From a virus (taxonomy: Duplodnaviria; Caudoviricetes), in IMG/VR virus record IMGVR_UViG_3300043429_000255, positions 1,980-65,979 of that record: 64,000 nucleotides of DNA; one strand, 5' to 3'. Position numbers and translations under genes: made by a program. Below are positions 1,909 through 58,962 of the stretch, one piece after another. Positions within the stretch are counted from its first letter, which is position 1; the number at the start of each line of letters is the position of its first letter. The notes under the pieces were generated by a model, which was given only the letters and a program-made list of their open reading frames with translations, was not told where the DNA came from and ran no database searches.

Positions 1909-2296
1909 TTAGTAGACCTAACCTTTCCTTTACCTTAATTACATCTTCTTGTGTGCCAAAGATTTCCACTCTAGCTATAACTGGTACCCCAGTCTTTTGA
2001 GAAATCATATCTGCAGCTTTGCAGTAATGCTCTCCAAAGTTTGTGTTTCCAAAACCAACTACACCAAGCAGAAGGTCTCTGTTTTGTTTAATATTTAAAA
2101 AACGTCGTACCTGTCTGGGGATTGCAGATCCTTCATTCCCTCCACCATAAGTTGGAACAAATAAAACGTAATAATCATCAACCACGGTAGGGCTGTCAAC
2201 ATCATCGCTAATAGGAATACGGATAGAATGCTCATTTAGTTTCTCCACGAATCGTTTAGTGTTGCCTGAATAATTAGAAAAGTAAACAATATCCAT
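1895..2296 (-). CDS. nrdI: NrdI flavodoxin-like protein
   Basis: [34 protein letters not shown] motifs; adjacent to nrdE. Confidence 0.95.
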
Positions 2297-46251: not shown

Positions 46252-46853
46252 TAGAACCCCTTAATCTCCCAGTCTTCCCAGTTAATGTCTTCATAGGCAG
46301 TTTTGCTTGGCATAAAAAGTTGACCTTTTATTCCCATCCATGCTTCAGAAATCACAAGATTTCCGCTATCAACTTTTGTTATTCCATGAGAATTCTCTTC
46401 ATTTTCTATAAAGTAAATTAAGTCTCCTGGTGACATAACAACTTCTTGAGATATATTTGGAAATACAAGTTTTCCACCAGTATAATCTTTTGTCCAACAT
46501 ATATAAGACTTATATGTTTTTTCTGGCTTGCTGTTGTCCCAATGAATTGCCGAATGACTACCTGCTTTATATCTAGCTAAATAATGTTTGGAAAACATTG
46601 GTGGGTGATAGTCCTCTGGCTCAATTTGACTAACCAAGTCAAAAAGTCCTTTAGAGTATTTAGAAAATATGTCTAAGATATGCCTTGGCATTTCTCCACG
46701 TGTATGGATATCAAACTCTGTTGATCCATGGCTAAACAGGTCATCATGTAGTGGCACATGGTCATCCTTGGTATTAAATTTAATTGAGTCTATGTACTCA
46801 GACACGATCTTAACATCGTTATCGTTTATAAAACTTTTAAAAACATGTATCAT
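46251..46853 (-). CDS. Prolyl-4-hydroxylase-like 2OG-Fe(II) oxygenase
   Basis: IHWD, DYTGGKLVFP, PGDLIYF, HGITKV; the usual 2OG-binding Arg is not evident. Confidence 0.75.
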   Translation of the reverse strand: MIHVFKSFINDNDVKIVSEYIDSIKFNTKDDHVPLHDDLFSHGSTEFDIHTRGEMPRHILDIFSKYSKGLFDLVSQIEPEDYHPPMFSKHYLARYKAGSHSAIHWDNSKPEKTYKSYICWTKDYTGGKLVFPNISQEVVMSPGDLIYFIENEENSHGITKVDSGNLVISEAWMGIKGQLFMPSKTAYEDINWEDWEIKGF

Positions 46854-47020
46854 TACTGAAACCTGCTATCGTTAGGATTGTGTTTTGGCAAATTTGATGC
46901 ACCACACTTAACGCAGGTAAGCTCTACTATCCCAGTAACTGGGCACTTATTTCCACGCAAGACCTCATGTCCAAGAAAACTGCATGTTTTTGCTTTTACC
47001 CATCGTTTAAAGTTTGACAA
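46853..47020 (-). CDS. Small zinc-binding protein
   Basis: TTG start after an AGGAG SD; C..LGH...CP.TG...C..C. Confidence 0.6.
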   Translation of the reverse strand: MSNFKRWVKAKTCSFLGHEVLRGNKCPVTGIVELTCVKCGASNLPKHNPNDSRFQ

Positions 47021-47657
47021 AATTATCTCCTCTATTTGGATCAAATGGAAGAATATCATATGCTATTGTAATTCTTGGCCTTTCTGAATCCCAGTCTCCT
47101 CGTGAGTGAGGGTGTCCAGTTTCAGAAACTATCGCTCTATTGTTTTTATTGACATTTTCAAACATGCTGCTTGGGTCTTTGTAAAGCTGATAATGTGTCA
47201 CTGAAGGTTCTGCGTCTATACAGTAGTACCCATGAAAATCTGGAATACCTTCCCCATTATTGTGATCATGAAGATTTTTCACGCTATACTTGTGAAAACC
47301 ATAGTCATAATTAAACCACGCCATAACCTGGTAGTTTTGAGTATTGAAATCTATGCCATAGTATTCACAGGCTTCAATAGTCATTTCTCTTAATGCTTTC
47401 TGCAATTTTTTAAATGGCTCGTAGTTATCTTTTAGAAGGTTATACTTGCTAAGTAGCTGAGTCGAGGCACCATTATATCTGGTCCATGGCTCTATGTTAG
47501 AGTTATTCCAGCCAGGACTTCCAACTGCAGGTGCAGTTTTATCTATCTCAAACACTTTGCCGTCAAGAATGTCGTCTAGCTTTTTATCTAGATATAACTT
47601 TATATCTTCAAGATCATTGTCCAACATCCTGTCAAAAAATTTGTGTGGTTTTGTCAT
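47007..47657 (-). CDS. Putative Fe(II) oxygenase (HxH...H cupin type)
   Basis: AWFN...HDH...GYYC...GHPH...RITIAYD. Confidence 0.7.
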   Translation of the reverse strand: MTKPHKFFDRMLDNDLEDIKLYLDKKLDDILDGKVFEIDKTAPAVGSPGWNNSNIEPWTRYNGASTQLLSKYNLLKDNYEPFKKLQKALREMTIEACEYYGIDFNTQNYQVMAWFNYDYGFHKYSVKNLHDHNNGEGIPDFHGYYCIDAEPSVTHYQLYKDPSSMFENVNKNNRAIVSETGHPHSRGDWDSERPRITIAYDILPFDPNRGDNFVKL

Positions 47658-47663
47658 CTTATC

Positions 47664-48335
47664 CTATGCTAGTGGTATCCAGTGCTGCTCTGCAACAATG
47701 CCTGCCTCTTGCAATCTCTTTAATGGACTAACGTCATAGGCTACAGTAATTCTTGGTCCGTCCCAATCCCAGTCTCCCATTGCGTGTGGGTGCCCCATTT
47801 CTGAAAGAATTGCACGATTATTTTTATTAATGTTTTCTACATCTTTATCAAATACGATGTAGTGAGTTGAAGATGGCTCTGCAGAAACACAATAGTATCC
47901 ATGGAAATCTGGAGCACCTGGACCACCGTGTTCATGCCAATTCAATTTTCCATTCCCAGAATGATTGATATTAAACCATCCCTGGATCATAAACTTTTGC
48001 TCTTCAAAATCTATCTCGTAGTGTTCGCAGGCTTCTCTAACCATACTACCAATGGCCTTATAAAGTTCATAGATACCGTCGATGTGAAACTGAAAGACGT
48101 TGTACTGTCTCCACTTCATAGTAGAAACGCTATTTGAATCTTTCCAAAGCTCTAGTGGGCTTACTGGAGTTACTCCAGCTATTTTTGCTTGCTCGATTAG
48201 TGAATATCTCTCTTGCAGCTCTTGTGACAGTTTTATAAGGTCGTTGTCAAGGTATCTTTCAAAGAATTTGTGTCCTTGTGTTGACTTGCTAATGCTTCTT
48301 AGTACAGTTTGATCTCTATACACGTCATACTCCAT
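47664..48335 (-). CDS. Putative Fe(II) oxygenase (HxH...H cupin type), paralog of 47007..47657
   Basis: GWFN...HEH...GYYC...GHPH...RITVAYD. Confidence 0.7.
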   Translation of the reverse strand: MEYDVYRDQTVLRSISKSTQGHKFFERYLDNDLIKLSQELQERYSLIEQAKIAGVTPVSPLELWKDSNSVSTMKWRQYNVFQFHIDGIYELYKAIGSMVREACEHYEIDFEEQKFMIQGWFNINHSGNGKLNWHEHGGPGAPDFHGYYCVSAEPSSTHYIVFDKDVENINKNNRAILSEMGHPHAMGDWDWDGPRITVAYDVSPLKRLQEAGIVAEQHWIPLA

Positions 48336-48378: not shown

Positions 48379-49062
48379 CTACTGATTTCTAAAGAATCCA
48401 AATGGAGAGAAGCCAAATACACCAAATGGTGAGAAGCCAAATACGCTGAATGGAACAAACGAAAATGTAGTAATGCTTCCAGAAGCTGCCGAAGCAGCAG
48501 ATCTACCATTAGAGTTATCTGCATAAACCACATATGTCTGAGCACTTCCCTGCTCTTGAGTAATATTAATATTTAGAGACGAGGTGTTTCCAGTCTTACC
48601 ATCTGAAGATACAACATAGTAGTTCGTAATTGCTTTTCCACCATTAGCAGGTGCAGTCCAAGACACAGTGTCGTAGTTTGCTCCATATGGAGATGATGCA
48701 ATAACAGATGTTGGGGCACCTGGAACTGTTGTTGCAGTAATTGCAGATGTTGCAGAAGACGCTGGAGAGGTTCCATACGTATTAGTTGCAGTAACAGTAA
48801 AAGTATAGTTGGTAGCTGATTGCAACCCCTGCACGGTAAGTGGTGAAGATGCTCCAGTTGCTGTATATCCTCCAGGAGAAGATGTTACAGTGTAAGAAGT
48901 AGCTGCATTTGGACCCTGGTGGGTAAATGTAACTGTTGCTGCACCATCATTGTACGCCCTATTAGTTCCAACGTCAGTAGCTGTTCCGATTAGTGGAGCT
49001 GCTGGTGCTAGATAGTCATTTTGTGCAAGAGACTTCTTTCCAACTCTTTTATTTGCTGCCAT
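48379..49062 (-). CDS. Two-FN3-domain protein with a Phe/Pro-rich C-terminal repeat
   Basis: YTVTSSPGG...GLQSATNYTFTVTATN; VSWTAPANGG..IT.Y; tail FSFVPFSVFGFSPFGVFGFSPFGFFRNQ. Confidence 0.85.
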   Translation of the reverse strand: MAANKRVGKKSLAQNDYLAPAAPLIGTATDVGTNRAYNDGAATVTFTHQGPNAATSYTVTSSPGGYTATGASSPLTVQGLQSATNYTFTVTATNTYGTSPASSATSAITATTVPGAPTSVIASSPYGANYDTVSWTAPANGGKAITNYYVVSSDGKTGNTSSLNINITQEQGSAQTYVVYADNSNGRSAASAASGSITTFSFVPFSVFGFSPFGVFGFSPFGFFRNQ

Positions 49063-49084
49063 TTAATTATTTCCCCTTCTAGGA

Positions 49085-50521
49085 TTAAGCTGATAGATCT
49101 CCGAAAACAACCCAAGTATCTGTTGCTCTCTTAAATAGTGTAGCAGATGACCACTGGGTACGTAGCTTTAGACCAGGGGTAGCGTTAACTGTAACTCCCC
49201 CTGCACCTGCAATAGTAACCTGACCAGCACCTGTCTGTAGGATATCAATAGATGTTCCTACTGGGTATGCAACTGAAGAGTTAGCTGGGATAGTAACTGT
49301 TACACCAGAGGATGATGATACCTCTACCAGCTTGTCACGGTCTGTAAGGACTGTTGTGTAGCTAGATGTCTGCTGATTGATTGCTGTTAGAGATGGAACT
49401 CCCTGCTTAACCTGTACTCCGTCAGAGTACTCGATTCCGCCTACCTTTAGGGTATCGTAAACAGCCTGTGAGAAGTTAATTGTAGTTGTTGGCTCGTCCT
49501 CAACACTTGAGAATAGCTTCCAAACGCCATCGGTAGCATCACGAACAATACCTGCATGCTGGTATGAGCCATTGTTAAATGATGAGACAATACCAAGGTC
49601 TACAACGTTTGCATCATTTCCTTCACCAATGTAGATCAGTGGGTCAGTTACAACTAGGTCTGTTGCATTGACTGTGGTAGTTGTTCCACCAACAGTTAGA
49701 TCTCCAGTAATGGAGATATCTGCGGCTGCTAGAGTACCAGTAAATGTTGGGTTGGCTGTAGGTGCCTTTGCATCTAGCTGAGTCTGAATATTTGAGGTTA
49801 CTCCGTCAACATAGTTTAGCTCTGTTACAGAAAGTGTTGCTCCGTCAAGAATGTTTACTTCTGATGCTGATGCAGTTACATCGATAACGTCTGCTAGATT
49901 AATTGTTACAGTGTTATCTGCTGCAGAAATAGTCTTGTTAGTTAGAGTTTCTACTCCAGCCTTGGTTGCTAGTGCTGATGTGTCTGGGATACCGTGAACA
50001 TTTGTGGTTTCTGAGTTGTGATCAGATACTGCTGTAGTAACCTCTGTATCTGTAGCCAATGTTGAATCTGCAGAAATTGTAACCTCTCCAGTTTCTGAAT
50101 CATATGATTTTGTTAGGCTGGTTCCTGCGATTACTTTGGTGCTGAGTGCAGTATTTATTTTGCCCTGAACAACACCATCAACATCTGTAATTGCGGATGC
50201 TAGCTCATTAAGAGTGTTTAAAGAATCTGGTGCACCAACAATAATATTAGAAAGCTGTGAAATTGGAATTTGAGAATCTCCATCTAGGGTAGCAACACCA
50301 TTTGCAGCACCCTTTTGCGTAAGAGGCACATAGTCATCAAATGATCCAGCTAGATCTCCAAGGTCCTTAAAGTAAGACAGGTCTGACCAGTTGTTGGTTC
50401 CATCACCAATCTTAAAGAAGCCAGTGTCGGTTTCAAAACCGATTTCACCTGCTGCTAGAATTGGATCCGCTGAGGTCCATTGATCCGCAGTTCCTCTGCG
50501 TTGCTGCATTCTTGTTGCCAT
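49085..50521 (-). CDS. Tail fibre-like protein (Mtd/hyaluronidase-like N-terminus, GDL C-terminal domain)
   Basis: QRRGTA.QW...ILAAGEIGFETDT..FKIGDG; TLNELA; ends WVVFGDLSA. Confidence 0.8.
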   Translation of the reverse strand: MATRMQQRRGTADQWTSADPILAAGEIGFETDTGFFKIGDGTNNWSDLSYFKDLGDLAGSFDDYVPLTQKGAANGVATLDGDSQIPISQLSNIIVGAPDSLNTLNELASAITDVDGVVQGKINTALSTKVIAGTSLTKSYDSETGEVTISADSTLATDTEVTTAVSDHNSETTNVHGIPDTSALATKAGVETLTNKTISAADNTVTINLADVIDVTASASEVNILDGATLSVTELNYVDGVTSNIQTQLDAKAPTANPTFTGTLAAADISITGDLTVGGTTTTVNATDLVVTDPLIYIGEGNDANVVDLGIVSSFNNGSYQHAGIVRDATDGVWKLFSSVEDEPTTTINFSQAVYDTLKVGGIEYSDGVQVKQGVPSLTAINQQTSSYTTVLTDRDKLVEVSSSSGVTVTIPANSSVAYPVGTSIDILQTGAGQVTIAGAGGVTVNATPGLKLRTQWSSATLFKRATDTWVVFGDLSA

Positions 50522-50579
50522 TTATTTACTCCTAAGTAGTGGGGTTACCCGTAAATCTATACTAATTATAACATTAGTT

Positions 50580-51038
50580 TTAGTTAAAATTGTCTATTGC
50601 AATTCCACCATCAAAGGTGTTTGCAAAGACTTCTGTGTCTGCTTGCCCTGCGTCCACAAAATTACCAGCACTGTCAAAATAACCTGCGTCGACAAACTGA
50701 CTCACAATTAGTCCGTTGCCTCCAATAGATGTATCATGAATGTGCTGTTGCAGAGTTTCTGCGTCAGCAAGTGTTGCTATCGATATCCAGGCACCATCTG
50801 AATAAATTGCTAGCCTTTGTGTCGATGAGTCAAAATATAGCTGGCCATCTGTTGCAGAAATAGGGGCAGATGATTCAAACGGTACAATTGGTGATCCAGT
50901 TACCTGATCTACATACTCTTTAGTGGTAGCGTGGTTATTTTCTGTAGGAGTTCCTACAATAACTGCTCCACCGAAGCTACCTCCGTTTGCGACCAGTAGG
51001 CCATTTTTAACCTTGAAGTCTTTTTCAACTGTTGCCAT
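50580..51038 (-). CDS. Fibre-associated virion protein
   Basis: KDFKVKNGL, HATTKEYVD, GQLYFDS...W fibre motifs. Confidence 0.65.
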   Translation of the reverse strand: MATVEKDFKVKNGLLVANGGSFGGAVIVGTPTENNHATTKEYVDQVTGSPIVPFESSAPISATDGQLYFDSSTQRLAIYSDGAWISIATLADAETLQQHIHDTSIGGNGLIVSQFVDAGYFDSAGNFVDAGQADTEVFANTFDGGIAIDNFN

Positions 51039-51105
51039 CTGCTTCTCCTGTTTAAGTCTTTAGCGTGGGGGGTTTTTAAGGAACCCCCCAAAACCTTTAA
51101 TTCAA

Positions 51106-52797
51106 TTAAATAAGTAGTGTTCCAATAACAGTAACTGTGGAGTTATTGTTAGCAGTTGTTACTAATAGTCTTACATCTGTTCCCGAAATATCTGCAGAAA
51201 TTGTTGATGCTGAACCATTGGTTCCAACAATTCCATACTCAGTTATTGCGATGTTGTCAGAAGTATCTAGGGTCAAAAGAACCTTAGAGATTTCTGTGTG
51301 AGTTCCGTAAGCAACCTTTACCAAGAATTCTGCTGAACGGTAATCTGCCTTAGCAAATGCGTGTCCAACCTGAATTCCTGCTGTTGCTGCAGTGATCTGA
51401 GATGCTACCTGCTTAGCTACGTTATCGATAATAACTGCATTTGGGTAGATATCTGCGTTAGACACTGCATCAATTGCACGTTCATCTGTGAAGTAAAGGT
51501 TTTCTTCACCCTCAGTTAGGTCATCAGTTGTAGAATCTGCTACGCCGTTTTCTGCAGTAATGGTTAGGCCAGACTCATCTCCAGTAATTGTGATGTTTGC
51601 CAGGCTTGCTCCAGTTAGAAGTGAAGCTGCTGATGCCTTGGCACGAGTATCTGTGAAGTACTGTGCTGTGCCTTCTGCAACATCATCTGTATCTAGTGTT
51701 ACTGTGTCACCAAGTGATGTTGAGTATCCATTAACTGTAATTGATGAGTTTGAAAGTGATGAGTTAGCAATGTTTGAAATGGTATTGCTTGAAGCATCAA
51801 TTGTCTTGTTGGTTAGAGTCTGAGAATCAGAGGTTCCTACGATATCACCAGACACACCGTGAGCTGATGAAGCGTTTGTGTGGGTATCAAGGTTATCCTG
51901 AACATCGCTTGCAGAACCAGCTGCATCATAAGCTGATGAGGTTGCTGAAAGTGCTGCAGTATTGAAGTCTGAGATATCTGTTGAAGCAAGTCCAGTTACA
52001 GAGATTGTGTCAGCTGTAATGTCAATGTTTGATCCAGCAGTTAGAGTACCCTGCTTACCAGCCAACGCAGTTGTCATGGTAGTTGCATAGTTCTCGTCAT
52101 CATTAATTGCTGCTGCAAGCTCATTCAGAGTATCTAGAAGACCTGGGGCACCGTCAACAAGGTTGTCCACTGCAGTGTTTACGTATGACTCTGTTGCATA
52201 GCCAGATAGGTCTGCTGACTTTAGGTAACCATAGCCGCCAACTGCTGAATCAAGTCCAGATGTTGGAGTATAGTCTTCTAATGCTGTGTCTGTGTAGCTA
52301 TTTGCATTGTTTTCTGCTGTAGTTGCGTAACCCTGTGCAGTTGTTAGTGCAGTTGTAATTTCACCATCTGTATAGGTTGCAGCTGACGCAACTGCATCGG
52401 TTTCAGCAGTGTCTGCATAAGTTTGGTAAGCAGATGTGATAGCTGTTTCACGACCATCTGTGTAAGAATTAGCAGAAGTTTCTGCTGCATCCGCATATCC
52501 CTGTGCAGTTGTTAGTGCTGTGGTGATTTCACCGTCTGTGTAAAGATTTGCGGCAGCTTCGGCTGCGGCTGCAGCACCATCTGCATCAAAAACACCAGAC
52601 TTAATGTTTAGCTCACCAGAAACAACCTCCATCTGAGTTGATTCAACTGAGGTGATTAGTGTTTCTCCACCGATCAAGTCGAGGATGTAAGCATCACCAG
52701 CTCCTTCTGTAAGGATCGCCTGGTTATTAATAGTACCTGTGGTACCTTCTACGACTAGACCACTTTTGATCTTAAAGTCTTTATTTACTGTTGCCAT
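51106..52797 (-). CDS. Tail fibre-like protein
   Basis: KDFKIKSGL, repeated YTDGEITTALTTAQGYA, LDTLNELAAAI, TDDLTEG..NLYFT.RA, YRSAEFLV C-domain. Confidence 0.75.
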   Translation of the reverse strand: MATVNKDFKIKSGLVVEGTTGTINNQAILTEGAGDAYILDLIGGETLITSVESTQMEVVSGELNIKSGVFDADGAAAAAEAAANLYTDGEITTALTTAQGYADAAETSANSYTDGRETAITSAYQTYADTAETDAVASAATYTDGEITTALTTAQGYATTAENNANSYTDTALEDYTPTSGLDSAVGGYGYLKSADLSGYATESYVNTAVDNLVDGAPGLLDTLNELAAAINDDENYATTMTTALAGKQGTLTAGSNIDITADTISVTGLASTDISDFNTAALSATSSAYDAAGSASDVQDNLDTHTNASSAHGVSGDIVGTSDSQTLTNKTIDASSNTISNIANSSLSNSSITVNGYSTSLGDTVTLDTDDVAEGTAQYFTDTRAKASAASLLTGASLANITITGDESGLTITAENGVADSTTDDLTEGEENLYFTDERAIDAVSNADIYPNAVIIDNVAKQVASQITAATAGIQVGHAFAKADYRSAEFLVKVAYGTHTEISKVLLTLDTSDNIAITEYGIVGTNGSASTISADISGTDVRLLVTTANNNSTVTVIGTLLI

Positions 52798-52816
52798 TGT
52801 TATCTCCTAGGGGTAA

Positions 52817-53263
52817 TTAGGCCTTGAGACCAATGCGAGCAAATCGCACGGTAACAGGTCTGATGTTTGAATCTGGGGTAACTGTTAAAGCCACAGTATT
52901 TCCAGATCTAGAGACGCTAACGGTGCCAATATTCCCATCATTGTCTATTGTTCCATACTCAGAAACATTTACATCTGTTCCATCTACAAGTATGGTAAGT
53001 TCGGTTGCGTAGAACAGGTTATCTCCATTAGATGTCTTTGAAATAGACACTAGGTACTTAACCATACGCCATACAGTTGCGTCGAATGAATCAACTACTG
53101 TCGGGTTCTCAATTCCAGAAATAGTATTTTCGTTATTGCCGAAAGTTCCTAAGTCAGTTGACTGAGCGGAGGTAGTATCGATTAGATCTACATAATCCTG
53201 TTCTTCAGGACGGTCACCAGTTTGAAATCTGGTTTTTACATAGGGGATGGTTGTTCTAGACAT
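52817..53263 (-). CDS. Fibre-associated virion protein
   Basis: FQTGDRP...DLID; C-domain WRMVKYLV...TE....DG...SEYG resembles the end of 51106..52797. Confidence 0.65.
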   Translation of the reverse strand: MSRTTIPYVKTRFQTGDRPEEQDYVDLIDTTSAQSTDLGTFGNNENTISGIENPTVVDSFDATVWRMVKYLVSISKTSNGDNLFYATELTILVDGTDVNVSEYGTIDNDGNIGTVSVSRSGNTVALTVTPDSNIRPVTVRFARIGLKA

Positions 53264-53297
53264 ACCTCAATTATAATGCCATTTATGAATACTAAGA

Positions 53298-53522
53298 TTA
53301 CATCACATAGTTGCTAATGCCAATGACAGCAATGCCGATTGGAGCTGCACTACCCTGGCCATATCCAGATATGCCAATATTTGTGAACTTAATTTTAAAA
53401 GGAAGTGTTTGGTTTATCTTTACATGGCCAGAACTATATTTAACTTTAGATGTAAAAAAGTTAGAGTTTTTAATATATCTAACAGAACGCTTTGTTTTAT
53501 CTACGATTACTGACTTTGCCAT
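53298..53522 (-). CDS. Small basic virion-region protein
   Basis: Coupled to the upstream stop; APIGIAVIG C-terminus. Confidence 0.6.
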   Translation of the reverse strand: MAKSVIVDKTKRSVRYIKNSNFFTSKVKYSSGHVKINQTLPFKIKFTNIGISGYGQGSAAPIGIAVIGISNYVM

Positions 53523-53914
53523 TAGTCTGTTACGTCTTCCAGGATAACCATTTTACCCTGGGCTACTGTCCAAACAGTTCCAACCTGAGAAACCTGAATG
53601 TCAAAAATATCTCCAGTTTCTAGAATCTCGGACTCTTCGGCTGTTAAAGAAACTGTGAATTCTCCATTTGCATCATCTGCATCTGGGCCTGGGGTAAGTG
53701 TTAGGATCAAGGTTGCGTCGTCAGTAATAACTCCAAGATTTTTTGCAAGATTTGGACGCTTAATCTTCATTGCAATATCCCAATCTGCAATGGTAAGAGC
53801 TGTCTTTGTGTCATCTGTAAGGTAAACCCTAAATGCAGCAGTATCTCCACGCACAACTGTCCAAACAACTTGTGGTGGAATGTTTCCAACTGAATAACTA
53901 TTTCCTCTTGCCAT
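53522..53914 (-). CDS. BppU-N-like adaptor protein (paralog 1)
   Basis: VVRGDT...FDIQV...TVAQG. Confidence 0.6.
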   Translation of the reverse strand: MARGNSYSVGNIPPQVVWTVVRGDTAAFRVYLTDDTKTALTIADWDIAMKIKRPNLAKNLGVITDDATLILTLTPGPDADDANGEFTVSLTAEESEILETGDIFDIQVSQVGTVWTVAQGKMVILEDVTD

Positions 53915-53932
53915 CTTATTATTATACCACCC

Positions 53933-54442
53933 TTAAGCTAGACCAGCTTTGAGTGCCCCCCAGGTTCCATCGCCTCTTGTTCCAACCATAATGGAGCCGT
54001 CAACTGCAGAGTGGATAACTGTTGCGACTGCAACACCTGTGGTAGAAGACGATGCATTTACAAGCCCACCAGACTCTCCAATGAACAAAGTATCTCCGTT
54101 ACTAAAGGATGATGTATTAATTGAATTAATTATCCCTGCAACAACAACTACACCAACAGCGTTATTATTTGTAGATGCCCTGATTAGTCCAAGAGTAGGG
54201 TTTGTTGTATTTCCAGTTGATGGAGAAACAGTGACATTTGTTCCATCGTGCCCAGTTACATAAACTGCAGATCCTGCAGGAATTGTTGATCCAGATGTAT
54301 TTTTTGCTGGAAGGTCTACATATGAAGCTTGTGGAAGAACCACATCAAGCCTGTCTGCAAGTTTTTTTATATCTCCATGAACGTTAACAACGTCTCCAGA
54401 TAGTGGAAACGGTATTTGATAGATATTGGTTGCATCAGCCAT
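53933..54442 (-). CDS. Virion accessory protein
   Basis: IPFP...DIKKLADRLD anchor motif; N.SG.TI..G.AVY...GD.LFI. Confidence 0.6.
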   Translation of the reverse strand: MADATNIYQIPFPLSGDVVNVHGDIKKLADRLDVVLPQASYVDLPAKNTSGSTIPAGSAVYVTGHDGTNVTVSPSTGNTTNPTLGLIRASTNNNAVGVVVVAGIINSINTSSFSNGDTLFIGESGGLVNASSSTTGVAVATVIHSAVDGSIMVGTRGDGTWGALKAGLA

Positions 54443-54541
54443 ATATTAAATTATATCAGACTGTTTCCCTAAATTGGCTAAAAAGTGGTATAATTGATGT
54501 CTAACTTCTGTAAAAGGAAGTTTTTGTTCTAAGGAGGACAA

Positions 54542-54619
54542 ATGATTAAACAAAGTGACAACAATGTTGAAATCGTAACTAACTCTCAACAACAGACATT
54601 TTTATTGCTATCGCACTAA
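54542..54619 (+). CDS. 25-aa upstream ORF
   Basis: AAGGAGG SD then MIKQSDNNVEIVTNSQQQTFLLLSH*, downstream of TGGTATAAT. Confidence 0.45.
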   Translation: MIKQSDNNVEIVTNSQQQTFLLLSH

Positions 54620-54686
54620 TAAAAATATTGTCGCCAAGACCGTGACAGGGTCGTAACAACGAAAAGAATAAAAAGGAGGTAGCAAA

Positions 54687-55442
54687 ATGAATAAAAAATT
54701 TGCTGCAATTGGTACCATACTGCTATTTACAACTAGTTCTGGGGCTGCATTTGCTAAAATGTCAGATCCGTATATTACAAAATCTGAGCAGTCTAAAATA
54801 ACAGAAGTAAGAAAACCAGAACAAATAATAAACCCCACTGTGACAATAAAATACTCTCCAATGGTTGGACCAGTGAAAGCTTCTAATCTTTCCAGCGGTC
54901 CTGTGCTAAAAAATGCAGATCCAGAGCCTGGGTCTATGGAGTGGATGGCTCAAGAAAAGGCTGAAAAAGATAGATTACAGTCTGACGCTGCTACTAAGCA
55001 AGAGCAGCTTGAGGCTGAAATTGCTAGGCTAGAGCGTGTTGCTAAAGACACCAAAGAGCTTAATCGAGCAGTATCTCTAGTAAAAAAGCAAGTTGGTAAA
55101 ACTTGGTATGCCTTTAGTGGATCTACCCCAGATGGTTGGGACTGCTCTGGCCTCGTCCTTTGGATGTATGGACAAATAGGATATACGCTAGAGCACCGTG
55201 CTTCTATTCAGAAGAACTCTGGTGAACTAGTCAAAGAACCAAAAATTGGAGACATCGTAGCTTTTACCTACAGGGGCTCTAAGTCTGCATACCACGTAGG
55301 AATATATCTGGGACCTAATGAGATGATTCATGCTGGTGGCAGACGTGGAGAAAAAACAGAGATAGTTCCAATAAGCTCTTGGGCAAAGGGCAATGGAAAT
55401 ACAATAGTTACCTATACTCGTGTTATTGAAACTAACAACTAG
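54687..55442 (+). CDS. Secreted NlpC/P60 peptidoglycan endopeptidase with coiled coil
   Basis: Signal peptide; Y.FSGSTPDGWDCSGLV, GDIVAF, HVGIY, MIHA. Confidence 0.9.
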   Translation: MNKKFAAIGTILLFTTSSGAAFAKMSDPYITKSEQSKITEVRKPEQIINPTVTIKYSPMVGPVKASNLSSGPVLKNADPEPGSMEWMAQEKAEKDRLQSDAATKQEQLEAEIARLERVAKDTKELNRAVSLVKKQVGKTWYAFSGSTPDGWDCSGLVLWMYGQIGYTLEHRASIQKNSGELVKEPKIGDIVAFTYRGSKSAYHVGIYLGPNEMIHAGGRRGEKTEIVPISSWAKGNGNTIVTYTRVIETNN

Positions 55443-55503
55443 CCTATATTGATTTTGATAGTAAAACAGAGTATAATTTTATATAAACAAAGCAAGGGAA
55501 AAA

Positions 55504-55746
55504 ATGAAAAACATATACAAGAGCATTCTACTTTCCATTATTTTTGGAAATATAGTTTCTTTTACAGTAGTTGCATGGACTTTTCCATGGAATACTTACC
55601 TTATCGATCCAACCCCATATTACATTGTTCAGGCAGAGGGGCTTGGGCTTCTGATTGCAGCCTGTATCTTTGCTTCTGAATGGATCAAATTTGCAGAAAA
55701 GCCAAAACTTTTTAAAATAAGATCTAAGTTTAAAGTTAAAAAATAA
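55504..55746 (+). CDS. Two-TM membrane protein
   Basis: Two hydrophobic segments and a Lys-rich tail. Confidence 0.6.
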   Translation: MKNIYKSILLSIIFGNIVSFTVVAWTFPWNTYLIDPTPYYIVQAEGLGLLIAACIFASEWIKFAEKPKLFKIRSKFKVKK

Positions 55747-55763
55747 CACCAAGATAAAAAGAT

Positions 55764-55793
55764 ACCCCCAGTTAAATCTGGGGGTTTTCTTTT
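55764..55793 (+). terminator. Bidirectional intrinsic terminator
   Basis: CCCCCAG-TTAAAT-CTGGGGG then TTTTCTTTT; lies between convergent genes. Confidence 0.75.
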
Positions 55794-55818
55794 ATAAAAA
55801 TGTTAAAGACAGTATTTT

Positions 55819-56139
55819 CTAACCATTAAAGAAACCAAATGGCGAGAACCCAAATACTGTAAATGGAGAAAATCCAAATGGTGCGAAGGCAAAAACAGTA
55901 TACTCTATGCTAACTGGAAGCTCATACGTGAACAAAGTACCAGAAGCTGGATCCTGAGATCTTACCTTATTATTATTTGAAGCTTCATTGTAGTCTGAGG
56001 TATTAAATGCTGTTTCGGTACCAACAACAAACCCGTCAGTAACTATTTGCGTTTTTGCTACATCTCTATCTAGACCAACCAGATTAGAGACAGTTTTCAT
56101 TCCTTTAGAGGATGACCAAAGACCAAATGAACCAATCAT
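55819..56139 (-). CDS. PASTA-domain protein with a Phe/Pro-rich C-terminal repeat
   Basis: VSNLVGL....A...I...GF...V.SQDP..GT; tail FAFAPFGFSPFTVFGFSPFGFFNG. Confidence 0.8.
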   Translation of the reverse strand: MIGSFGLWSSSKGMKTVSNLVGLDRDVAKTQIVTDGFVVGTETAFNTSDYNEASNNNKVRSQDPASGTLFTYELPVSIEYTVFAFAPFGFSPFTVFGFSPFGFFNG

Positions 56140-56145
56140 TTTATC

Positions 56146-56793
56146 CTACGCAGTCAGGTCGCCTATAAGTAGCCACTCGTTAGTGCCAATCTTTGTTAGC
56201 ACTGCTCCAGAATATCGAGCTGCAATCTTTCTATTTGAATTTTTGCTGTTAAGTGTTACGTTGCTATTGATTGGTGCAACAGAGACTGCCCCAGTGCCAT
56301 ATCTCAAAATTTCAATTTTCTGTCCAATCTTAAATGCTACAGAAGAATTTTCTGGGATATAAATAATAGAGTCAGTAGAGTCAGAGACTCTTAGACTATT
56401 TCCTGCATCACCGATCAGAAGTGTGTATGACCCTGCTGAAACAGTGGGTGACTTAAGAATTGCAGAGTCATTTGATGATCTCCATCTGGTGCCATCATAG
56501 AACTGAATATCATTAATGGTTGAGCCATCGGCATCTTGCCCAACAAAACAAACCAAACCTGTTACTGGAGATGTAATTGCAGCGTCACGGGCGGATGGTG
56601 TGGCAAAGTTATTTATACCAGCCTTATTTTTTACAACTGTTTCAAATGTTACTGATGAATCAGAGCTGAATGTGTGATCTCCAGACCAAGTATAATCTGC
56701 ACTAGGGCTAGCTACTCCAGAGATTGGTCTCCAGTTTGTACCGTCAAAAATATATGCAACCTTAGATTGCGAGCTTACTGGGTATGTTGTCAT
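56146..56793 (-). CDS. Short fibre-like protein with GDL C-terminal domain
   Basis: F.T.SARDAAITSP..G; IPENSSVAF.IG..IEI...G.G.V; ends WLLIGDLTA. Confidence 0.7.
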   Translation of the reverse strand: MTTYPVSSQSKVAYIFDGTNWRPISGVASPSADYTWSGDHTFSSDSSVTFETVVKNKAGINNFATPSARDAAITSPVTGLVCFVGQDADGSTINDIQFYDGTRWRSSNDSAILKSPTVSAGSYTLLIGDAGNSLRVSDSTDSIIYIPENSSVAFKIGQKIEILRYGTGAVSVAPINSNVTLNSKNSNRKIAARYSGAVLTKIGTNEWLLIGDLTA

Positions 56794-57251
56794 TATGCAC
56801 CAATTTCTTTCCAAGTAGTTGTATCTAAATCATAGACATACATCTTTAGTGGTGATGAATTTTTATCTACCCACAATAGGCCGTCAACTAGATCGGTTAC
56901 TGGAGCAGAGTTTTGATAAATTGTTGCCTGAACCAATGGTACAGTAGCAGTTGCATCACTTGGCATCCAGATATATCCATCTGCTGGATCCTCTGGCTCT
57001 GTGCCATAAGATGACCCAATTCCCAAAGACTCTAGTAAGTTAATCTCGTCTTGCATAACCTTTAGATATCTAGCAAGAGACGGGTTTGGTAAGTTATTAA
57101 TAGCACCAGATGCTGCTGGGTCAAATGAGGTCGATCCATATAGGAATAGCTTTAGAGCAGCCTGAATATCGGCTGCATCGTCATAGCCAGGAACTTTTGT
57201 ATTGTATACACCAGTACCATTTAGGGTACCGTCAATATTCTGTGCAGTCAT
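56793..57251 (-). CDS. Fibre-associated virion protein
   Basis: P.Y...ADIQAAL; P..P.DG.IW and DGLLWVD...YVY repeats. Confidence 0.6.
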   Translation of the reverse strand: MTAQNIDGTLNGTGVYNTKVPGYDDAADIQAALKLFLYGSTSFDPAASGAINNLPNPSLARYLKVMQDEINLLESLGIGSSYGTEPEDPADGYIWMPSDATATVPLVQATIYQNSAPVTDLVDGLLWVDKNSSPLKMYVYDLDTTTWKEIGA

Positions 57252-57268: not shown

Positions 57269-57847
57269 TTATACCACAGTCACAAATAGGTGAACTGATT
57301 TCTGCCCTGACAGGCTGGTCCAAGCATCTGACTCAAACTCTACCGCATTTATTGTTATTGGTAGAGACAAAATGTCTGTTGGGGATGTTGTTACATCACC
57401 AATTGTTATAGAAGAAGCTATTGGATTTTGAGAAATTATAGAATACTGTACGTTAAAATTTGAAGCAGTCAGAGTTGACAGCGGATTGTCGTCACCAGTT
57501 ACTGACGAAACTGGAATCCAGACCTCTACGCTACCGTCTACAAAAGATAAATCTTCATTAGTACTATAGGTATTTGGTTGTAGCTTAAATAAAGATTTCC
57601 ATGATAGGCCAGTAGGGGTATTGATGTATTGATAAACCCATTGATATTCATCATCTGATGGCAAAAGATTAACATACATATCATATAGCAATGGTGATTC
57701 TGGCAACGTAACCAGGTATGGTTTTCCTTGTCCGTACAGAATTAGACTTCCACGATCTCCACGTTGGCCATAGTCAACAGAGACGTCGATCTTAGAAGGT
57801 CCACCAAGTATATTTAAGTTAGCAGATGCTATTGTAGTTTCTACCAT
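57269..57847 (-). CDS. Virion-region hypothetical protein
   Basis: DYGQRGDRGS; beta-rich; coupled to the upstream gene. Confidence 0.6.
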   Translation of the reverse strand: MVETTIASANLNILGGPSKIDVSVDYGQRGDRGSLILYGQGKPYLVTLPESPLLYDMYVNLLPSDDEYQWVYQYINTPTGLSWKSLFKLQPNTYSTNEDLSFVDGSVEVWIPVSSVTGDDNPLSTLTASNFNVQYSIISQNPIASSITIGDVTTSPTDILSLPITINAVEFESDAWTSLSGQKSVHLFVTVV

Positions 57848-58218
57848 TATGCTGCACCAGAAACCTGATCAGTAATTGAAACAGTTCCAGTTAGCAGAGT
57901 GTAGACATATGGGTAGCTTCCAGAAACAGTTCTTGAAATCTCTACGTCATAAACGTATTGAATTGCTGGATCCAGGTTTGCTCCCTGTGATGGAGTAATT
58001 ACACATGCAACATGAGAAAGATCACTGGCAATGGATGCGGTTGCAAGAATCTGAGTTGCCTCTGATCCTCTAGCAGTGGCAATAGTAAACTTAGCTGTAC
58101 CATTAGCAAGAAAGTCTGTTAGGTCAAATGCCGCACCTGACGCATCTTTCGGGTAAATTTTAAATTCAAGGGTGTCGCCCTTATAGTAAGAAATGTTGTA
58201 TGTGCCTGGAAATGCCAT
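57847..58218 (-). CDS. BppU-N-like adaptor protein (paralog 2)
   Basis: YYKGDT...FDLT...YVYDVEI...TLLTG. Confidence 0.6.
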   Translation of the reverse strand: MAFPGTYNISYYKGDTLEFKIYPKDASGAAFDLTDFLANGTAKFTIATARGSEATQILATASIASDLSHVACVITPSQGANLDPAIQYVYDVEISRTVSGSYPYVYTLLTGTVSITDQVSGAA

Positions 58219-58233
58219 AACTTATATTATACA

Positions 58234-58962
58234 CTAATATACTGATATATATATAGATTTTAGGGATGCCAACGCATCCAGGTCAGACATAAGTTGTGGA
58301 ATAATCCCAGCACTCTTATCTAGCTCGGTCTCAATAGTAAGCTGATGAATTATTGACACTTCGTAAGTATGTTGATATTTAAAAGAGCCTACAAAAGTGG
58401 TAAAATGCTTTTCTGTTCCTTGAAACAGTGACCTTGCTAAAACCTCTGTGTTTGAGCTAAAAGTTGATATCTCAAAACTATACACAATCTGTATTTGAGA
58501 GCCAACGGCTAGTCCTTTAAGATTTATCTTTCTAATTTCTGGATTATAAAGACTTACGGATCCTTCTGGAAGATACTTTTCTTCTTTTGCTGAACTATCT
58601 ATCCAAAAAGAAACCCAACCATCTATTCCACGGGTGGCACCAATCGGTAGCTGTTTGCTTTCAAAATCATAATATTTTGCCCAGCCAGAATTTTGATTAT
58701 ATGATGGAAAATAAGATTTTCCGTCTTTTCCGTCTTTTCCGTCTTTTCCGTCTTTTCCGTTTTTTCCTGCTGGCCCTGTATCGCCCTTGTCACCCTTTAT
58801 AGACTCTCCTTGCAATCCTCGGTCGCCCTTTGGTCCTGGAGGCCCTGGTGGACCCTGTGGCCCTGGTACGGCAAAGAATTGAGGATCTTCTGCCTGCTGA
58901 GAAGCTTTAACTTTTGAGGCATACCCAGATGAGGGGAAATTTATATTCTGAGAAACAGCCAT
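58234..58962 (-). CDS. Collagen-like (Gly-X-Y) protein
   Basis: GPQGPPGPPGPKGDRGLQG...GKDGKDGKDG followed by a globular C-domain. Confidence 0.8.
   Translation of the reverse strand: MAVSQNINFPSSGYASKVKASQQAEDPQFFAVPGPQGPPGPPGPKGDRGLQGESIKGDKGDTGPAGKNGKDGKDGKDGKDGKSYFPSYNQNSGWAKYYDFESKQLPIGATRGIDGWVSFWIDSSAKEEKYLPEGSVSLYNPEIRKINLKGLAVGSQIQIVYSFEISTFSSNTEVLARSLFQGTEKHFTTFVGSFKYQHTYEVSIIHQLTIETELDKSAGIIPQLMSDLDALASLKSIYISVY
58717..58761. repeat. 9-bp tandem repeat (TTTTCCGTC)x4 plus one variant
   Basis: Read directly; encodes GKD repeats. Confidence 0.9.

What the first reader, a model, noticed from the sequence alone, without database searches (positions are those of the whole stretch)
48379..56793. 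Duplicated two-gene module: GDL-ending fibre plus swappable binding domain with an identical VFGFSPFGFF tag
Seen: 49085..50521 and 56146..56793 share a C-terminal domain (IP.NSSVA..G..I.IL..G.G.V...S.A.L.K..T..W...GDL.A). Each is immediately followed by a small gene with an unrelated body (two FN3 domains versus one PASTA domain) but the same terminal decapeptide VFGFSPFGFF, with differing codons. Established: PASTA domains bind peptidoglycan fragments and FN3 domains are common phage adhesins. Inference: a plug-and-socket display system in which the fibre tip carries interchangeable adhesins, with the Phe-rich tag acting as a docking, self-assembly, membrane-insertion or modification signal.
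Basis: partly seen in the sequence, partly recalled or inferred. Interest (0 to 1): 0.82.

Follow-up and report, generated by a model that had tools for sequence, protein, structure and literature searches.

The report
Phage fibre-tip proteins with phenylalanine-rich tails
An uncultured phage, probably of Actinobacteria, carries two copies of a "fibre end plus small binding protein" gene pair, and each small protein ends in a floppy tail that is about 40% phenylalanine, an undescribed but widespread feature that looks more like an enzyme-modified free end than a docking tag.

Summary
Two fibre genes share a ~100-residue C-terminal "GDL" domain (34% identity, E 1e-14). Each is followed within 6-22 nt by a small gene (two FN3 domains, or one PASTA-like domain) that ends in the same Phe-rich repeat.

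The "tag" is a 24-28-residue, charge-free repeat with about 40% Phe, not just a decapeptide. Repeat number and type vary widely in relatives.

The gene pairing is conserved: 68 of 70 complete loci of module 1 and 17 of 17 of module 2. Natural fusions join the GDL protein, aromatic repeats and a PASTA domain in one chain.

The idea that the tail is the plug is not supported:
- Repeat type is uncoupled from the GDL sequence.
- In relatives the repeat is an internal linker, or is capped by Hint, S74 or Cys-rich modules.

The GDL domain models as a T4 gp9/gp10-XD1-like, TNF-like knob.

Two results are new here. The two tails of one genome are kept alike at protein level while their synonymous codons are randomised. 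The type of neighbouring oxygenase also follows the repeat type. The tails are therefore best read as free distal ends serviced by one oxygenase cassette.

This scan met the same family before in at least eight other windows. I found no paper on it.

The parts
49085..50521 (-). Module 1 fibre protein, 478 aa. N-terminal Mtd_N-type fibre motif (residues 6-42), shaft, and a C-terminal GDL domain.
   Evidence: ORF. Pfam Mtd_N 49.7 bits. PHROG tail-fibre and minor-tail families.
49088..49435 (-). GDL domain of the module 1 fibre (about residues 363-478).
   Evidence: 34% identical to the module 2 domain, E 1e-14. 56% identical to the C-terminal end of Gordonia phage minor tail proteins.
48379..49062 (-). 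Module 1 tip protein, 227 aa: conserved basic N-terminal peptide, two FN3 domains, and a Phe-rich tail.
   Evidence: Pfam fn3. The AF2 model has two beta-sandwiches with pLDDT above 90, a tail at pLDDT 55-59 and an N-terminus at 48-69. 1345 relatives at E <= 0.01.
48382..48465 (-). Phe-rich repeat tail of the FN3 protein (residues 200-227, three octads, 11 of 28 residues Phe).
   Evidence: A 24-nt tandem repeat lies at 48398..48444.
48994..49062 (-). Conserved N-terminal peptide of the FN3 protein (residues 1-23), the candidate docking element.
   Evidence: Invariant or nearly invariant K5 G8 S11 N15 D16 L18 P20 P23 in 60 sequences. The docking role is inferred.
56146..56814 (-). Module 2 short fibre-end protein, 222 aa (or 215 aa from the ATG at 56793): a small N-terminal domain plus a GDL domain.
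   Evidence: AF2 model with mean pLDDT 82.8. 11,906 representative clusters at E <= 0.001.
56149..56469 (-). GDL domain of module 2 (about residues 116-222), an all-beta knob.
   Evidence: pLDDT above 90. VIA-align hits: Pa223 capsid-spike C-terminal knob Z 13.6, rmsd 1.9 A over 96 residues; CBA120 TSP4 residues 80-180 (XD1) Z 9.1; T4 gp10 Z 8.5; T4 gp9 Z 8.2.
55819..56139 (-). Module 2 tip protein, 106 aa: conserved N-terminal 15-mer, a PASTA-like domain, and a Phe-rich tail.
   Evidence: Pfam PASTA 22.7 bits against a 23.2 cut-off. 39 relatives. Invariant M1 G3 G6 W8 S11 K12 G13 M14 K15.
55822..55893 (-). Phe-rich repeat tail of the PASTA-like protein (residues 83-106, 10 of 24 residues Phe).
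47664..48335 (-). Oxygenase-like gene A, 43 nt downstream of the FN3 gene.
   Evidence: 42% identical to the next gene. No Pfam hit. Its nearest ESM Atlas clusters carry PF13759 2OG-FeII_Oxy_5 (score 0.96, a lead only). Homologues follow FxFxPF-type tail genes in 17 of 29 loci.
47007..47657 (-). Oxygenase-like gene B, a paralogue of A.
46853..47059 (-). 68-aa Cys-containing micro-protein within the enzyme cassette.
   Evidence: ORF. Homologues at the same place in 6 of 18 loci of the 'short FxFxPF' class.
46251..46853 (-). 2OG-Fe(II) oxygenase-like gene 3.
   Evidence: Pfam 2OG-FeII_Oxy_3 at 25.9 bits against a cut-off of 27. 29% identical to gene 4.
45730..46251 (-). 2OG-Fe(II) oxygenase gene 4.
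   Evidence: Pfam 2OG-FeII_Oxy_3 at 43.7 bits. PHROG 61. Homologues follow FFPP-type tail genes in 21 of 28 loci.
55764..55785 (.). Bidirectional terminator-like hairpin. It closes module 2 right after the PASTA-tail gene and also closes the convergent lysis genes.
   Evidence: a consensus scan only.

Best explanation
The region holds two paralogous cassettes of the fibre apparatus of an uncultured siphovirus-like phage whose nearest cultured kin infect Actinobacteria.

Each cassette has two genes. The first is a fibre protein that ends in a ~100-residue all-beta knob, the GDL domain. Its fold is that of the T4 gp9 middle domain, the gp10 and CBA120-TSP4 XD1 domain, and a TNF-like knob. The second, 6-22 nt downstream, is a small modular protein made of a conserved N-terminal peptide, a binding body (two FN3 domains or one PASTA-like domain) and a charge-free repeat with about 40% Phe.

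Shown:
- the pairing and its near-universal conservation;
- natural fusions that put the GDL protein, aromatic repeats and PASTA in one chain;
- the fold of the GDL domain in a model.

Inferred:
- The small protein rides on the fibre end as an accessory adhesin. It is held by its N-terminal peptide, as in branched receptor-binding complexes.
- The Phe-rich repeat is not a plug. It is a flexible low-complexity stalk that ends free in this phage.
- Both tails are kept alike by selection at the protein level. The most likely reason is that both must be recognised by the single oxygenase cassette encoded directly behind the FN3 gene, which would hydroxylate or otherwise oxidise them. After that they would act as a sticky or self-associating distal element on the host envelope.
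For: Pairing:
- 68 of 70 loci with a complete GDL end and a complete downstream ORF carry an aromatic repeat protein. The classes are FxFxPF 30, FFPP 30, FGA 4, NFY 2 and YxFxPY 2 (loci, where 508 places were confirmed and the best 80 kept).
- 17 of 17 orthologues of the 222-aa protein are followed at 3-9 nt by a PASTA-like protein with the same N-terminal peptide.

Fusions:
- P0192 is N-domain + GDL, then aromatic repeats, then PASTA (29.4 bits; 32% identical to the window protein, E 2e-8), then repeats and Cys modules.
- P0171, P0180, P0188, P0191, P0194 and P0197 run from GDL into Pro/Thr-rich linkers, most with Cys-containing modules.

Fold: VIA-align Z 13.6, 9.1, 8.5 and 8.2 to the Pa223 knob, TSP4 XD1, gp10 and gp9. 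The domain names come from passages of PMC8825819 and of the Pa223 preprint.

N-terminal peptides are the most invariant stretches of both tip proteins.

The tail is predicted unstructured in the monomer, at pLDDT 55-59.

The free tail is the mature state. Hint-bearing relatives have Arg-Cys at the junction, and many stand-alone forms stop at ...F-x-F-R.

Matched tails (10 genomes where both tails are Phe-rich):
- Shared 5-mers are 0.362 within a genome against 0.206 between genomes. 0 of 20,000 permutations reached this.
- In peptide segments of at least 7 residues shared by the two tails, 179 of 363 codons are identical against 179.8 expected from random codon choice. This rules out recent gene conversion.

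Enzymes:
- Homologues of genes A/B lie behind 17 of 29 FxFxPF loci, 2 of 2 NFY loci and 0 of 28 FFPP loci.
- Only gene-4-like oxygenases lie behind 21 of 28 FFPP loci.
- In two-module genomes A/B lie next to module 1 in 6 of 6 loci, and no oxygenase follows a Phe-rich module 2 tail in 0 of 10.
- A gene-4-like oxygenase follows 3 of 7 module 2 genes whose tails are Pro-rich or VTP-type.
- No further 2OG oxygenase was found among the other 30 large ORFs of the window.
Against: - No binding, virion location or chemical modification is shown.
- GDL identity tracks N-terminal-peptide identity only weakly (Spearman 0.18). The plug role of the N-terminus therefore rests on analogy and on the fusions.
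- The GDL domain matches XD1, which the CBA120 authors regard as a spacer, not the XD2/XD3 docking modules. It also occurs in tandem arrays of up to 22 copies, like a shaft module.
- 12 of 29 FxFxPF loci showed no A/B homologue within the 1.5-2.8 kb examined.
- A tail's best-matching partner tail was that of its own genome in only 5 of 10 cases.
- None of the association counts is corrected for shared ancestry, and several loci are near-duplicates.
- The cassettes lie upstream of the portal gene, not behind the tape-measure and tail-tip genes. A head or neck location cannot be excluded.
- Peptidase_S74 chaperones directly after the repeat in some relatives suggest that the repeat may fold as a trimer rather than stay floppy.
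Confidence: 0.5

Rival explanations
1. The Phe-rich tail is a plug that docks into the shared GDL socket, so any protein that carries the tag is displayed on any GDL-ending fibre.
For: - Both the tail and the GDL domain are the only elements shared by the two modules.
- The two tails of one genome are kept alike by selection, as expected for a common partner.
- Adjacency is nearly universal.
Against: - Repeat class is uncoupled from GDL sequence: Spearman 0.01, and 20 of 70 pairs with at least 90% identical GDL domains differ in class (for example 96% identical GDL with FFPP against FxFxPF).
- The two GDL domains of this phage are only 34% identical, while the tails share an identical decapeptide.
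- Module 2 orthologues replace the tail by poly-Pro or VTP repeats in 7 of 17 loci.
- The repeat is internal in fusions, or is followed by Hint, S74 or Cys-rich modules.
- Gordonia phage Wizard has a GDL-ending minor tail protein followed by a minor tail protein with no such tail.
Confidence: 0.1
2. The repeat is a self-assembly element. Three tails, from like or unlike tip proteins, zip into a Phe-cored trimeric or cross-beta stalk that oligomerises the adhesins. The Hint and S74 domains of relatives are removable folding caps.
For: - Peptidase_S74 intramolecular chaperones, which in known fibres nucleate the trimer just upstream (recalled), sit directly after the repeat in P0025, P0039, P0041 and P0066 (45.9 bits).
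- The window's FN3 tail has three regular octads.
- Within-genome matching of the two tails would fit co-assembly.
- Low monomer pLDDT is also expected of a fold that exists only in an oligomer.
Against: - Periods are mixed within single tails (8, 5 and 3 residues) and differ between classes such as FGA, GFTPF and FFPP. That is hard to fit to one regular fold.
- In P0192 the same kind of repeat serves as a linker between globular modules.
- Most family members have no chaperone.
Confidence: 0.2
3. The tail is a hydrophobic membrane- or envelope-inserting anchor. It would act either in the host cell during assembly or as the element that penetrates the host envelope on adsorption.
For: - 24-28 residues, uncharged and about 40% Phe, followed by 2-3 polar residues. 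That is the length and hydrophobicity of a tail anchor.
- The PASTA-tail gene is convergent with the lysis genes.
Against: - Pro and Gly recur every few residues.
- Repeat length ranges from about 15 to over 100 residues in relatives.
- The tail is replaced by poly-Pro, VTP or Pro/Thr linkers, and is internal in fusions.
Confidence: 0.07
4. The small proteins are not virion parts. They would be fibre-assembly helpers or cell-wall-binding accessory proteins, and gene adjacency would reflect co-expression only.
For: - Genes downstream of fibre genes often encode assembly chaperones (recalled).
- No proteomic evidence exists, because no cultured phage in the collection holds a homologue.
Against: - Single-chain fusions with the fibre-end protein exist.
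- FN3 and PASTA bodies, and the self-cleaving caps of relatives, are typical of displayed proteins rather than chaperones.
- The downstream gene in Gordonia phage Wizard is annotated as a minor tail protein (an annotation only).
Confidence: 0.08

Closest known systems
Branched receptor-binding complexes: CBA120 TSP4-N (AD-XD1-XD2-XD3), G7C gp66/gp63.1, and Klebsiella phage KP32 with its RBP1 branching domain and RBP2 conserved N-terminal peptide (PMC8825819, passages read; PMC13352976, abstract read)
   Same: - A primary fibre or spike carries T4 gp10-type beta modules.
- A second binding protein, encoded next to it, is attached through a short conserved N-terminal peptide.
- The binding modules are exchangeable.
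- The GDL domain superposes on TSP4 residues 80-180 with Z 9.1.
   Different: - The matching module is XD1 (called a spacer by the authors), not the XD2/XD3 jellyrolls that bind partners.
- The module is C-terminal here, not N-terminal.
- The secondary proteins are small FN3 or PASTA proteins with aromatic repeat tails, not tailspike enzymes.
- Binding is untested.
Pseudomonas phage Pa223 capsid spike gp52, C-terminal knob (PDB 9ny6; bioRxiv 10.1101/2025.06.11.659172, passages read)
   Same: Best structural match of the GDL domain: Z 13.6, rmsd 1.9 A over 96 residues. It too is the C-terminal knob of a trimeric fibre-like protein, and its authors call the fold TNF-like.
   Different: - 8% sequence identity.
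- It sits on a capsid, not a tail.
- No partner protein is known for it.
- Its function is unknown as well.
T2/S16-type gp38 adhesin on the tip of long tail fibre gp37 (recalled, not tested)
   Same: The gene directly behind the distal fibre gene encodes a small adhesin. It attaches by its N-terminal part and carries low-complexity (Gly-rich) motifs in its distal part.
   Different: There is no sequence or fold relation shown. The gp38 motifs form a defined polyglycine-II sandwich, whereas the tails here are Phe-rich and predicted unstructured.
FG-repeat domains of nucleoporins (recalled)
   Same: Charge-poor, Phe- and Gly-rich, repetitive, predicted disordered and cohesive by composition.
   Different: The tails here have about 40% Phe with no hydrophilic spacers. 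They are extracellular and viral, and are tied to oxygenase genes.
Chlorovirus PBCV-1 prolyl 4-hydroxylase with that virus's Pro-rich repeat proteins
   Same: A virus encodes both a 2OG oxygenase and repetitive candidate substrates.
   Different: Here the candidate substrates are fibre-tip tails next to the enzymes, and the enzyme class changes with the repeat class. The chemistry is unknown.
Bacterial intein-like and Hedgehog-type Hint domains, and Peptidase_S74 intramolecular chaperones of fibres
   Same: Relatives of the FN3 protein end in these self-removing domains directly after the repeat.
   Different: The window's two proteins have neither. They stop where the cap of the relatives would be cut off.

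Membership tests
Branched RBP system (T4 gp10-like branching domain plus conserved docking peptide) | The primary RBP carries XD2/XD3-type (~60-residue beta-jellyroll) branching domains. | tested here: not met
   The GDL model aligns to TSP4 residues 80-180, gp10 residues 49-149 and gp9 residues 66-165. These are the XD1 or middle domains according to PMC8825819. No XD2/XD3 match was listed.
Branched RBP system (T4 gp10-like branching domain plus conserved docking peptide) | The secondary RBP begins with a short conserved peptide. | tested here: met
   N-terminal residues are invariant or nearly so in 35 PASTA-type sequences and 60 FN3-type sequences. This shows conservation only.
Branched RBP system (T4 gp10-like branching domain plus conserved docking peptide) | Physical binding of the secondary protein to the primary one. 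| not testable with these tools
   Only indirect support: adjacency and single-chain fusions.
T4 gp9 / gp10-XD1 / TNF-like knob fold | A ~95-residue beta-sandwich that superposes on solved members. | tested here: met
   Z 13.6 (9ny6), 10.7 (9f4a), 9.1 (7rfv), 8.5 (5iv5) and 8.2 (1qex), at rmsd 1.9-3.3 A over 90-96 residues. The model has pLDDT above 90 in this domain. This is a predicted model, not a structure.
Fibronectin type III (PF00041) | Pfam score above the gathering cut-off, and a beta-sandwich fold. | tested here: met
   40.5 bits against a cut-off of 25, in two stretches. The AF2 model has two beta-sandwiches with pLDDT above 90.
PASTA (PF03793) | Pfam score above the gathering cut-off. 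| tested here: inconclusive
   The window protein scores 22.7 bits against 23.2. 9 of 39 relatives carry a precomputed PF03793 hit, and P0192 scores 29.4 bits.
Hint / Peptidase_S74-capped fibre proteins | A self-cleaving C-terminal domain after the repeat. | tested here: not met
   Both window proteins stop 2-3 residues after the repeat. Relatives have PF14890 or PF13884.
FG-nucleoporin-type repeats | FG motifs separated by hydrophilic spacers in a long disordered domain. | tested here: not met
   The window tails have no spacers, about 40% Phe and only 24-28 residues. The only shared trait is the disorder prediction.
2OG-Fe(II) oxygenase with a repeat-protein substrate | The enzyme acts on the neighbouring repeat. 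| not testable with these tools
   Only the gene-neighbourhood association is available.

The most novel reading that the evidence does not exclude
The Phe-rich tails would be a new kind of virion appendage: intrinsically disordered, aromatic, enzyme-oxidised 'sticky ends' on fibre-tip adhesins. On this reading, the 2OG-Fe(II)-type oxygenases that are common and unexplained in aquatic phage genomes are virion-maturation enzymes. Each is matched to a repeat class (genes A/B with Phe repeats, prolyl-hydroxylase-like enzymes with Pro-rich repeats), and one cassette services every tail of the virion. That would explain why separate tails of one phage are held alike by selection.
Probability: 0.3. 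Interest if true: 0.85.

Novelty: new variant of a known kind. Interest (0 to 1): 0.62.

Why it matters
- Fibre-tip architecture sets host range. Here a very large group of uncultured phages uses a modular "knob + clip-on adhesin" design whose adhesins end in a repeat of a composition not described for virions. The FN3-type tip protein alone has 1345 clusters at 90% identity.
- If the tails are substrates of the adjacent oxygenases, a long-unexplained class of phage "auxiliary" oxygenases gets a concrete and testable job.
- Protein-level concerted evolution of two unlinked tails, with synonymous sites randomised, is an unusual and clean signal of a shared partner.
- The conserved N-terminal peptides and the GDL knobs could serve as parts for display or host-range engineering in actinophages.

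Tried and rejected
- **Complex prediction.** Residues 60-222 of the 222-aa protein (3 copies) with the 106-aa protein (3 copies), both as alignments, gave no verdict (score 0.00, controls not run). This is neither for nor against binding.
- **Cultured phages.** Megablast of the region against cultured phages found no match. tblastn of the 106-aa protein gave only chance-level hits at E >= 1, and the 227-aa protein gave none at E <= 1e-3. No cultured representative was found in that collection.
- **Pattern scan.** A scan of viral contigs for the back-translated nonapeptide gave 9 loci, of which only 1 (L009) was a true relative. The other 8 were out-of-frame or unrelated.
- **Sequence search of the PDB.** A 3-sequence GDL profile found nothing meaningful; the best hit was E 0.03, to an antibody fragment. 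The fold came only from the model.
- **Recent gene conversion between the two tails.** Rejected: 179 of 363 codons identical against 179.8 expected.
- **A regular triple beta-helix as the general fold of the repeat.** Set aside because periods of 8, 5 and 3 residues are mixed.
- **A wider duplication beyond the two genes.** All-against-all BLAST shows only the GDL and tail matches between the modules. However, 53522..53914 and 57847..58218 both hit PHROG 1084.
- **Literature.** Searches for the hexapeptide, for 'phenylalanine-rich repeat' with phage and tail fiber, for freshwater actinobacteria phage with FN3 and low-complexity, and for Hint domain with tail fiber found no description of this architecture.

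Full report
**1. What the window is**

The window is bases 1980-65979 of a 65,979-bp IMG/VR virus record, estimated about 60% complete.

Nearly all genes lie on the minus strand. PHROG matches identify the following:
- a 2041-aa tape-measure protein;
- portal, prohead protease and major capsid protein;
- DNA polymerase, primase, helicase and a UvsX-like recombinase.

The portal is 46-47% identical to portals of Streptomyces phages. The C-terminal domain studied here is 56% identical to the end of Gordonia phage minor tail proteins. Together with a PASTA-like domain and a secreted NlpC/P60 lysin, this fits an actinobacterial host. The host assignment is an inference.

**2.

- The 478-aa ORF 49085..50521(-) and the 222-aa ORF 56146..56814(-) share their last ~120 residues at 34% identity, E 1e-14.
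- They are followed after 22 nt and 6 nt by 48379..49062(-) and 55819..56139(-). The first has two FN3 domains (Pfam 40.5 bits). The second has a PASTA-like domain (22.7 bits against a cut-off of 23.2).
- The two small proteins resemble each other only in their tails.
- The tails are 28 and 24 residues of F-x-F-x-P-F units, with 11 of 28 and 10 of 24 residues Phe. They carry no charge until the last few residues.
- No other frame of the window has the motif.
- Within the identical final decapeptide, 3 of the 5 four-fold degenerate sites differ.

**3. The small proteins belong to large families whose tails vary**

- The FN3 protein has 1345 relatives at E <= 0.01 among 90%-identity clusters.
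- Of the 120 best, 118 carry the repeat, with about 3 to more than 12 units.
- After the repeat comes one of three things:
  - a few residues, very often ...F-x-F-R;
  - a Peptidase_S74 chaperone (four proteins; 45.9 bits);
  - a Hint/intein-type domain that begins with Cys after an Arg.
- L009 shows the same with about eleven pentapeptide repeats, but its Hint-type match is only weak: Pfam Intein_splicing 13.6 bits against a cut-off of 35.8, E 0.06, and the domain begins with Ser, not Cys.
- Stand-alone proteins thus end about where a Hint cap would be cut off. A free tail therefore appears to be the mature state. This is an inference.
- The PASTA-like protein has 39 relatives. Most show the same type of tail, and six add a Cys-rich end.

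**4. The pairing with a GDL-ending protein is conserved**

*Module 1.*
- A profile of the GDL domain found 508 confirmed places in viral contigs, of which the best 80 were kept.
- In 70 of these, both the GDL end and a complete downstream ORF could be read.
- 68 of the 70 downstream proteins carry an aromatic repeat: FxFxPF 30, FFPP 30, FGA 4, NFY 2 and YxFxPY 2.

*Module 2.*
- All 17 orthologues of the 222-aa protein are followed at 3-9 nt by a PASTA-like protein with the same N-terminal 15-mer.
- Ten have Phe-rich tails. Seven have poly-Pro, short Pro/Phe or VTP repeats, mostly followed by Cys-rich modules.

*A cultured relative.* In Gordonia phage Wizard the GDL-ending gp35 is also followed, 3 nt later, by a "minor tail protein", but that protein has no aromatic repeat.

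**5. Fusions**

Among the best 150 representatives related to the 222-aa protein, several continue past the GDL end in one chain:
- Pro/Thr-rich linkers, most with Cys-containing modules: P0171, P0180, P0188, P0191, P0194, P0197.
- P0192: aromatic repeats, then a PASTA domain (29.4 bits; 32% identical to the window's protein, E 2e-8), then more repeats and Cys modules.

These fusions are the strongest indirect evidence that the downstream protein is the physical continuation of the fibre end. They also show the aromatic repeat working as a linker between globular modules. In P0192 the repeat enters the PASTA domain at the place where the window's protein has its conserved N-terminal 15-mer. 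This fits that peptide being the non-covalent substitute for the link (an inference).

**6. What the GDL domain is**

- It is very common: 11,906 representative clusters at E <= 0.001. It also occurs in tandem arrays of up to 22 stretches in one protein.
- An AF2 model of the 222-aa protein (mean pLDDT 82.8, with the domain above 90) gives an all-beta domain.
- It superposes on the following:
  - the C-terminal knob of the Pa223 capsid spike: Z 13.6, rmsd 1.9 A over 96 residues;
  - a Klebsiella phage KP1 baseplate protein: Z 10.7;
  - CBA120 TSP4 residues 80-180: Z 9.1;
  - T4 gp10: Z 8.5;
  - T4 gp9: Z 8.2.
- According to the CBA120 paper, this is the XD1 module, seen as a spacer. XD2 and XD3 bind partner spikes (PMC8825819, passages).
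- The Pa223 authors call their knob TNF-like (preprint passages).
- The domain therefore belongs to the adaptor and knob repertoire of phage fibres. Its fold does not by itself make it a socket.

**7. Is the tail the plug?**

The comparative data say no.
- GDL identity does not predict repeat class (Spearman 0.01).
- 20 of 70 locus pairs with at least 90% identical GDL domains have different repeat classes. One pair has 96% identical GDL domains, with FFPP against FxFxPF.
- The repeat can be replaced by Pro-rich repeats and can be internal.
- By contrast, the N-terminal peptides are the most invariant parts of both tip proteins. This parallels the "conserved peptide" that docks secondary receptor-binding proteins in Klebsiella podophages (PMC13352976, abstract).
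- GDL identity tracks N-terminal identity only weakly (0.18), so this assignment remains an inference.

**8. The two tails of one genome are kept alike**

Ten genomes have both modules with Phe-rich tails.
- The FN3 tail and the PASTA tail of the same genome share more 5-mers (0.362) than tails of different genomes (0.206). 0 of 20,000 permutations reached this.
- Lineage-specific variants (F-N-F units, D-F-F units, P-T-F insertions) appear in both tails of the same genome.
- The own-genome tail was the single best partner in only 5 of 10 cases, and the genomes are related, so the permutation figure overstates the significance.
- In the peptide segments of at least 7 residues shared by the two tails, 179 of 363 codons are identical, against 179.8 expected from random choice among the codons used in those tails.

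The likeness is therefore held at the protein level and is not the result of recent gene conversion. The two tails must meet a common, lineage-specific partner.

**9. The enzyme neighbourhood**

In the window, the FN3-tail gene is followed directly by five genes:
- two paralogous genes, A and B. They are 42% identical with shared H-[DE]-H and G-H-P-H motifs. They have no Pfam hit. Their nearest ESM Atlas clusters carry 2OG-FeII_Oxy_5, which is a lead only;
- a 68-aa Cys-containing micro-protein;
- two 2OG-FeII_Oxy_3-type genes.

No other oxygenase was found among 30 further ORFs. Module 2 ends at a terminator-like hairpin facing the lysis genes.

Across loci with at least 1.5 kb of downstream sequence:

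| Repeat class | Genes A/B downstream | Gene-4-like oxygenase alone |
|---|---|---|
| FxFxPF | 17 of 29 | not counted for this class |
| NFY | 2 of 2 | not counted for this class |
| FFPP | 0 of 28 | 21 of 28 |

In two-module genomes:
- genes A/B lie next to module 1 in 6 of 6 loci;
- no oxygenase follows a Phe-rich module 2 tail (0 of 10);
- a gene-4-like oxygenase follows 3 of the 7 module 2 genes whose tails are Pro-rich or VTP-type.

Earlier notes of this scan had proposed this link on other genomes. I reused the idea and tested it here, with the same outcome. The counts are not corrected for shared ancestry. One cassette for two tails would explain why the tails must stay alike.

**10. 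Verdict**

The finding is real, and the family is widespread. I found no paper that describes it. This scan met it before in at least eight other windows.

The module is a new variant of a known design, in which a secondary adhesin is clipped to a fibre adaptor. The Phe-rich tail is the truly unusual part. It is best read as a free, flexible distal repeat that is a candidate substrate of the adjacent oxygenases. It is not a docking tag. Binding, modification and function all remain untested.

Noticed in passing
window 54687..55442 (+) and 55504..55746 (+): A lysis cassette lies on the opposite strand, wedged between the two fibre modules. It consists of an NlpC/P60 protein with an N-terminal signal-like segment (64.5 bits) and an 80-aa protein that looks like a two-helix membrane protein. 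NlpC/P60 homologues lie convergent to the PASTA-tail gene in 6 of 10 related loci with Phe-rich tails (L093-L102).
   Followed up: partly
window 41977..45714 (-): A 1245-aa protein with weak CBM_4_9 and Laminin_G_3 matches lies between the oxygenase cassette and the portal gene. It has no PHROG match and may be another large fibre or decoration protein. The whole fibre block lies upstream of the head genes, not behind the tail-tip genes.
   Followed up: no
window 53522..53914 (-) and 57847..58218 (-): Both proteins match PHROG 1084 (E about 1e-12), one in each fibre block, although they do not hit each other by BLASTP at 1e-3. The duplication may once have spanned more than the two genes.
   Followed up: partly
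window 58234..58962 (-): A collagen-like fibre protein (Pfam Collagen, 34.8 bits) with a run of G-K-D triplets lies at the head of module 2.
   Followed up: no
window 52817..53263 (-): A 148-aa protein whose C-terminal part matches PHROG 967, 'baseplate wedge tail fiber protein connector', and PHROG 2885. It may be another adaptor-type module in the same block.
   Followed up: no
proteins P0162, P0163, P0164: The GDL domain forms long tandem arrays in other proteins: 22 stretches in a 3206-aa protein, 16 in a 2401-aa protein and 6 in a 750-aa protein. It can therefore build a shaft as well as a terminal knob.
   Followed up: partly
L115 and L116, about 180 nt downstream of an ~800-aa GDL-ending fibre: More distant phages have a small ORF with a short FFPP motif and a Cys-rich body but no FN3 or PASTA domain. 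This suggests the 'fibre end plus repeat/Cys-rich tip' design reaches beyond the close family.
   Followed up: no
window 1..2296 (-): Class Ib ribonucleotide reductase genes: a large subunit cut by the window end, and the NrdI flavodoxin.
   Followed up: no
window 48398..48444: The FN3 tail is encoded by a 24-nt tandem repeat with 2.0 copies and 95% matches. Close relatives at 86-93% protein identity already differ in tail length or ending, and a relative at 87% identity has one extra octad. Repeat number thus changes fast.
   Followed up: partly
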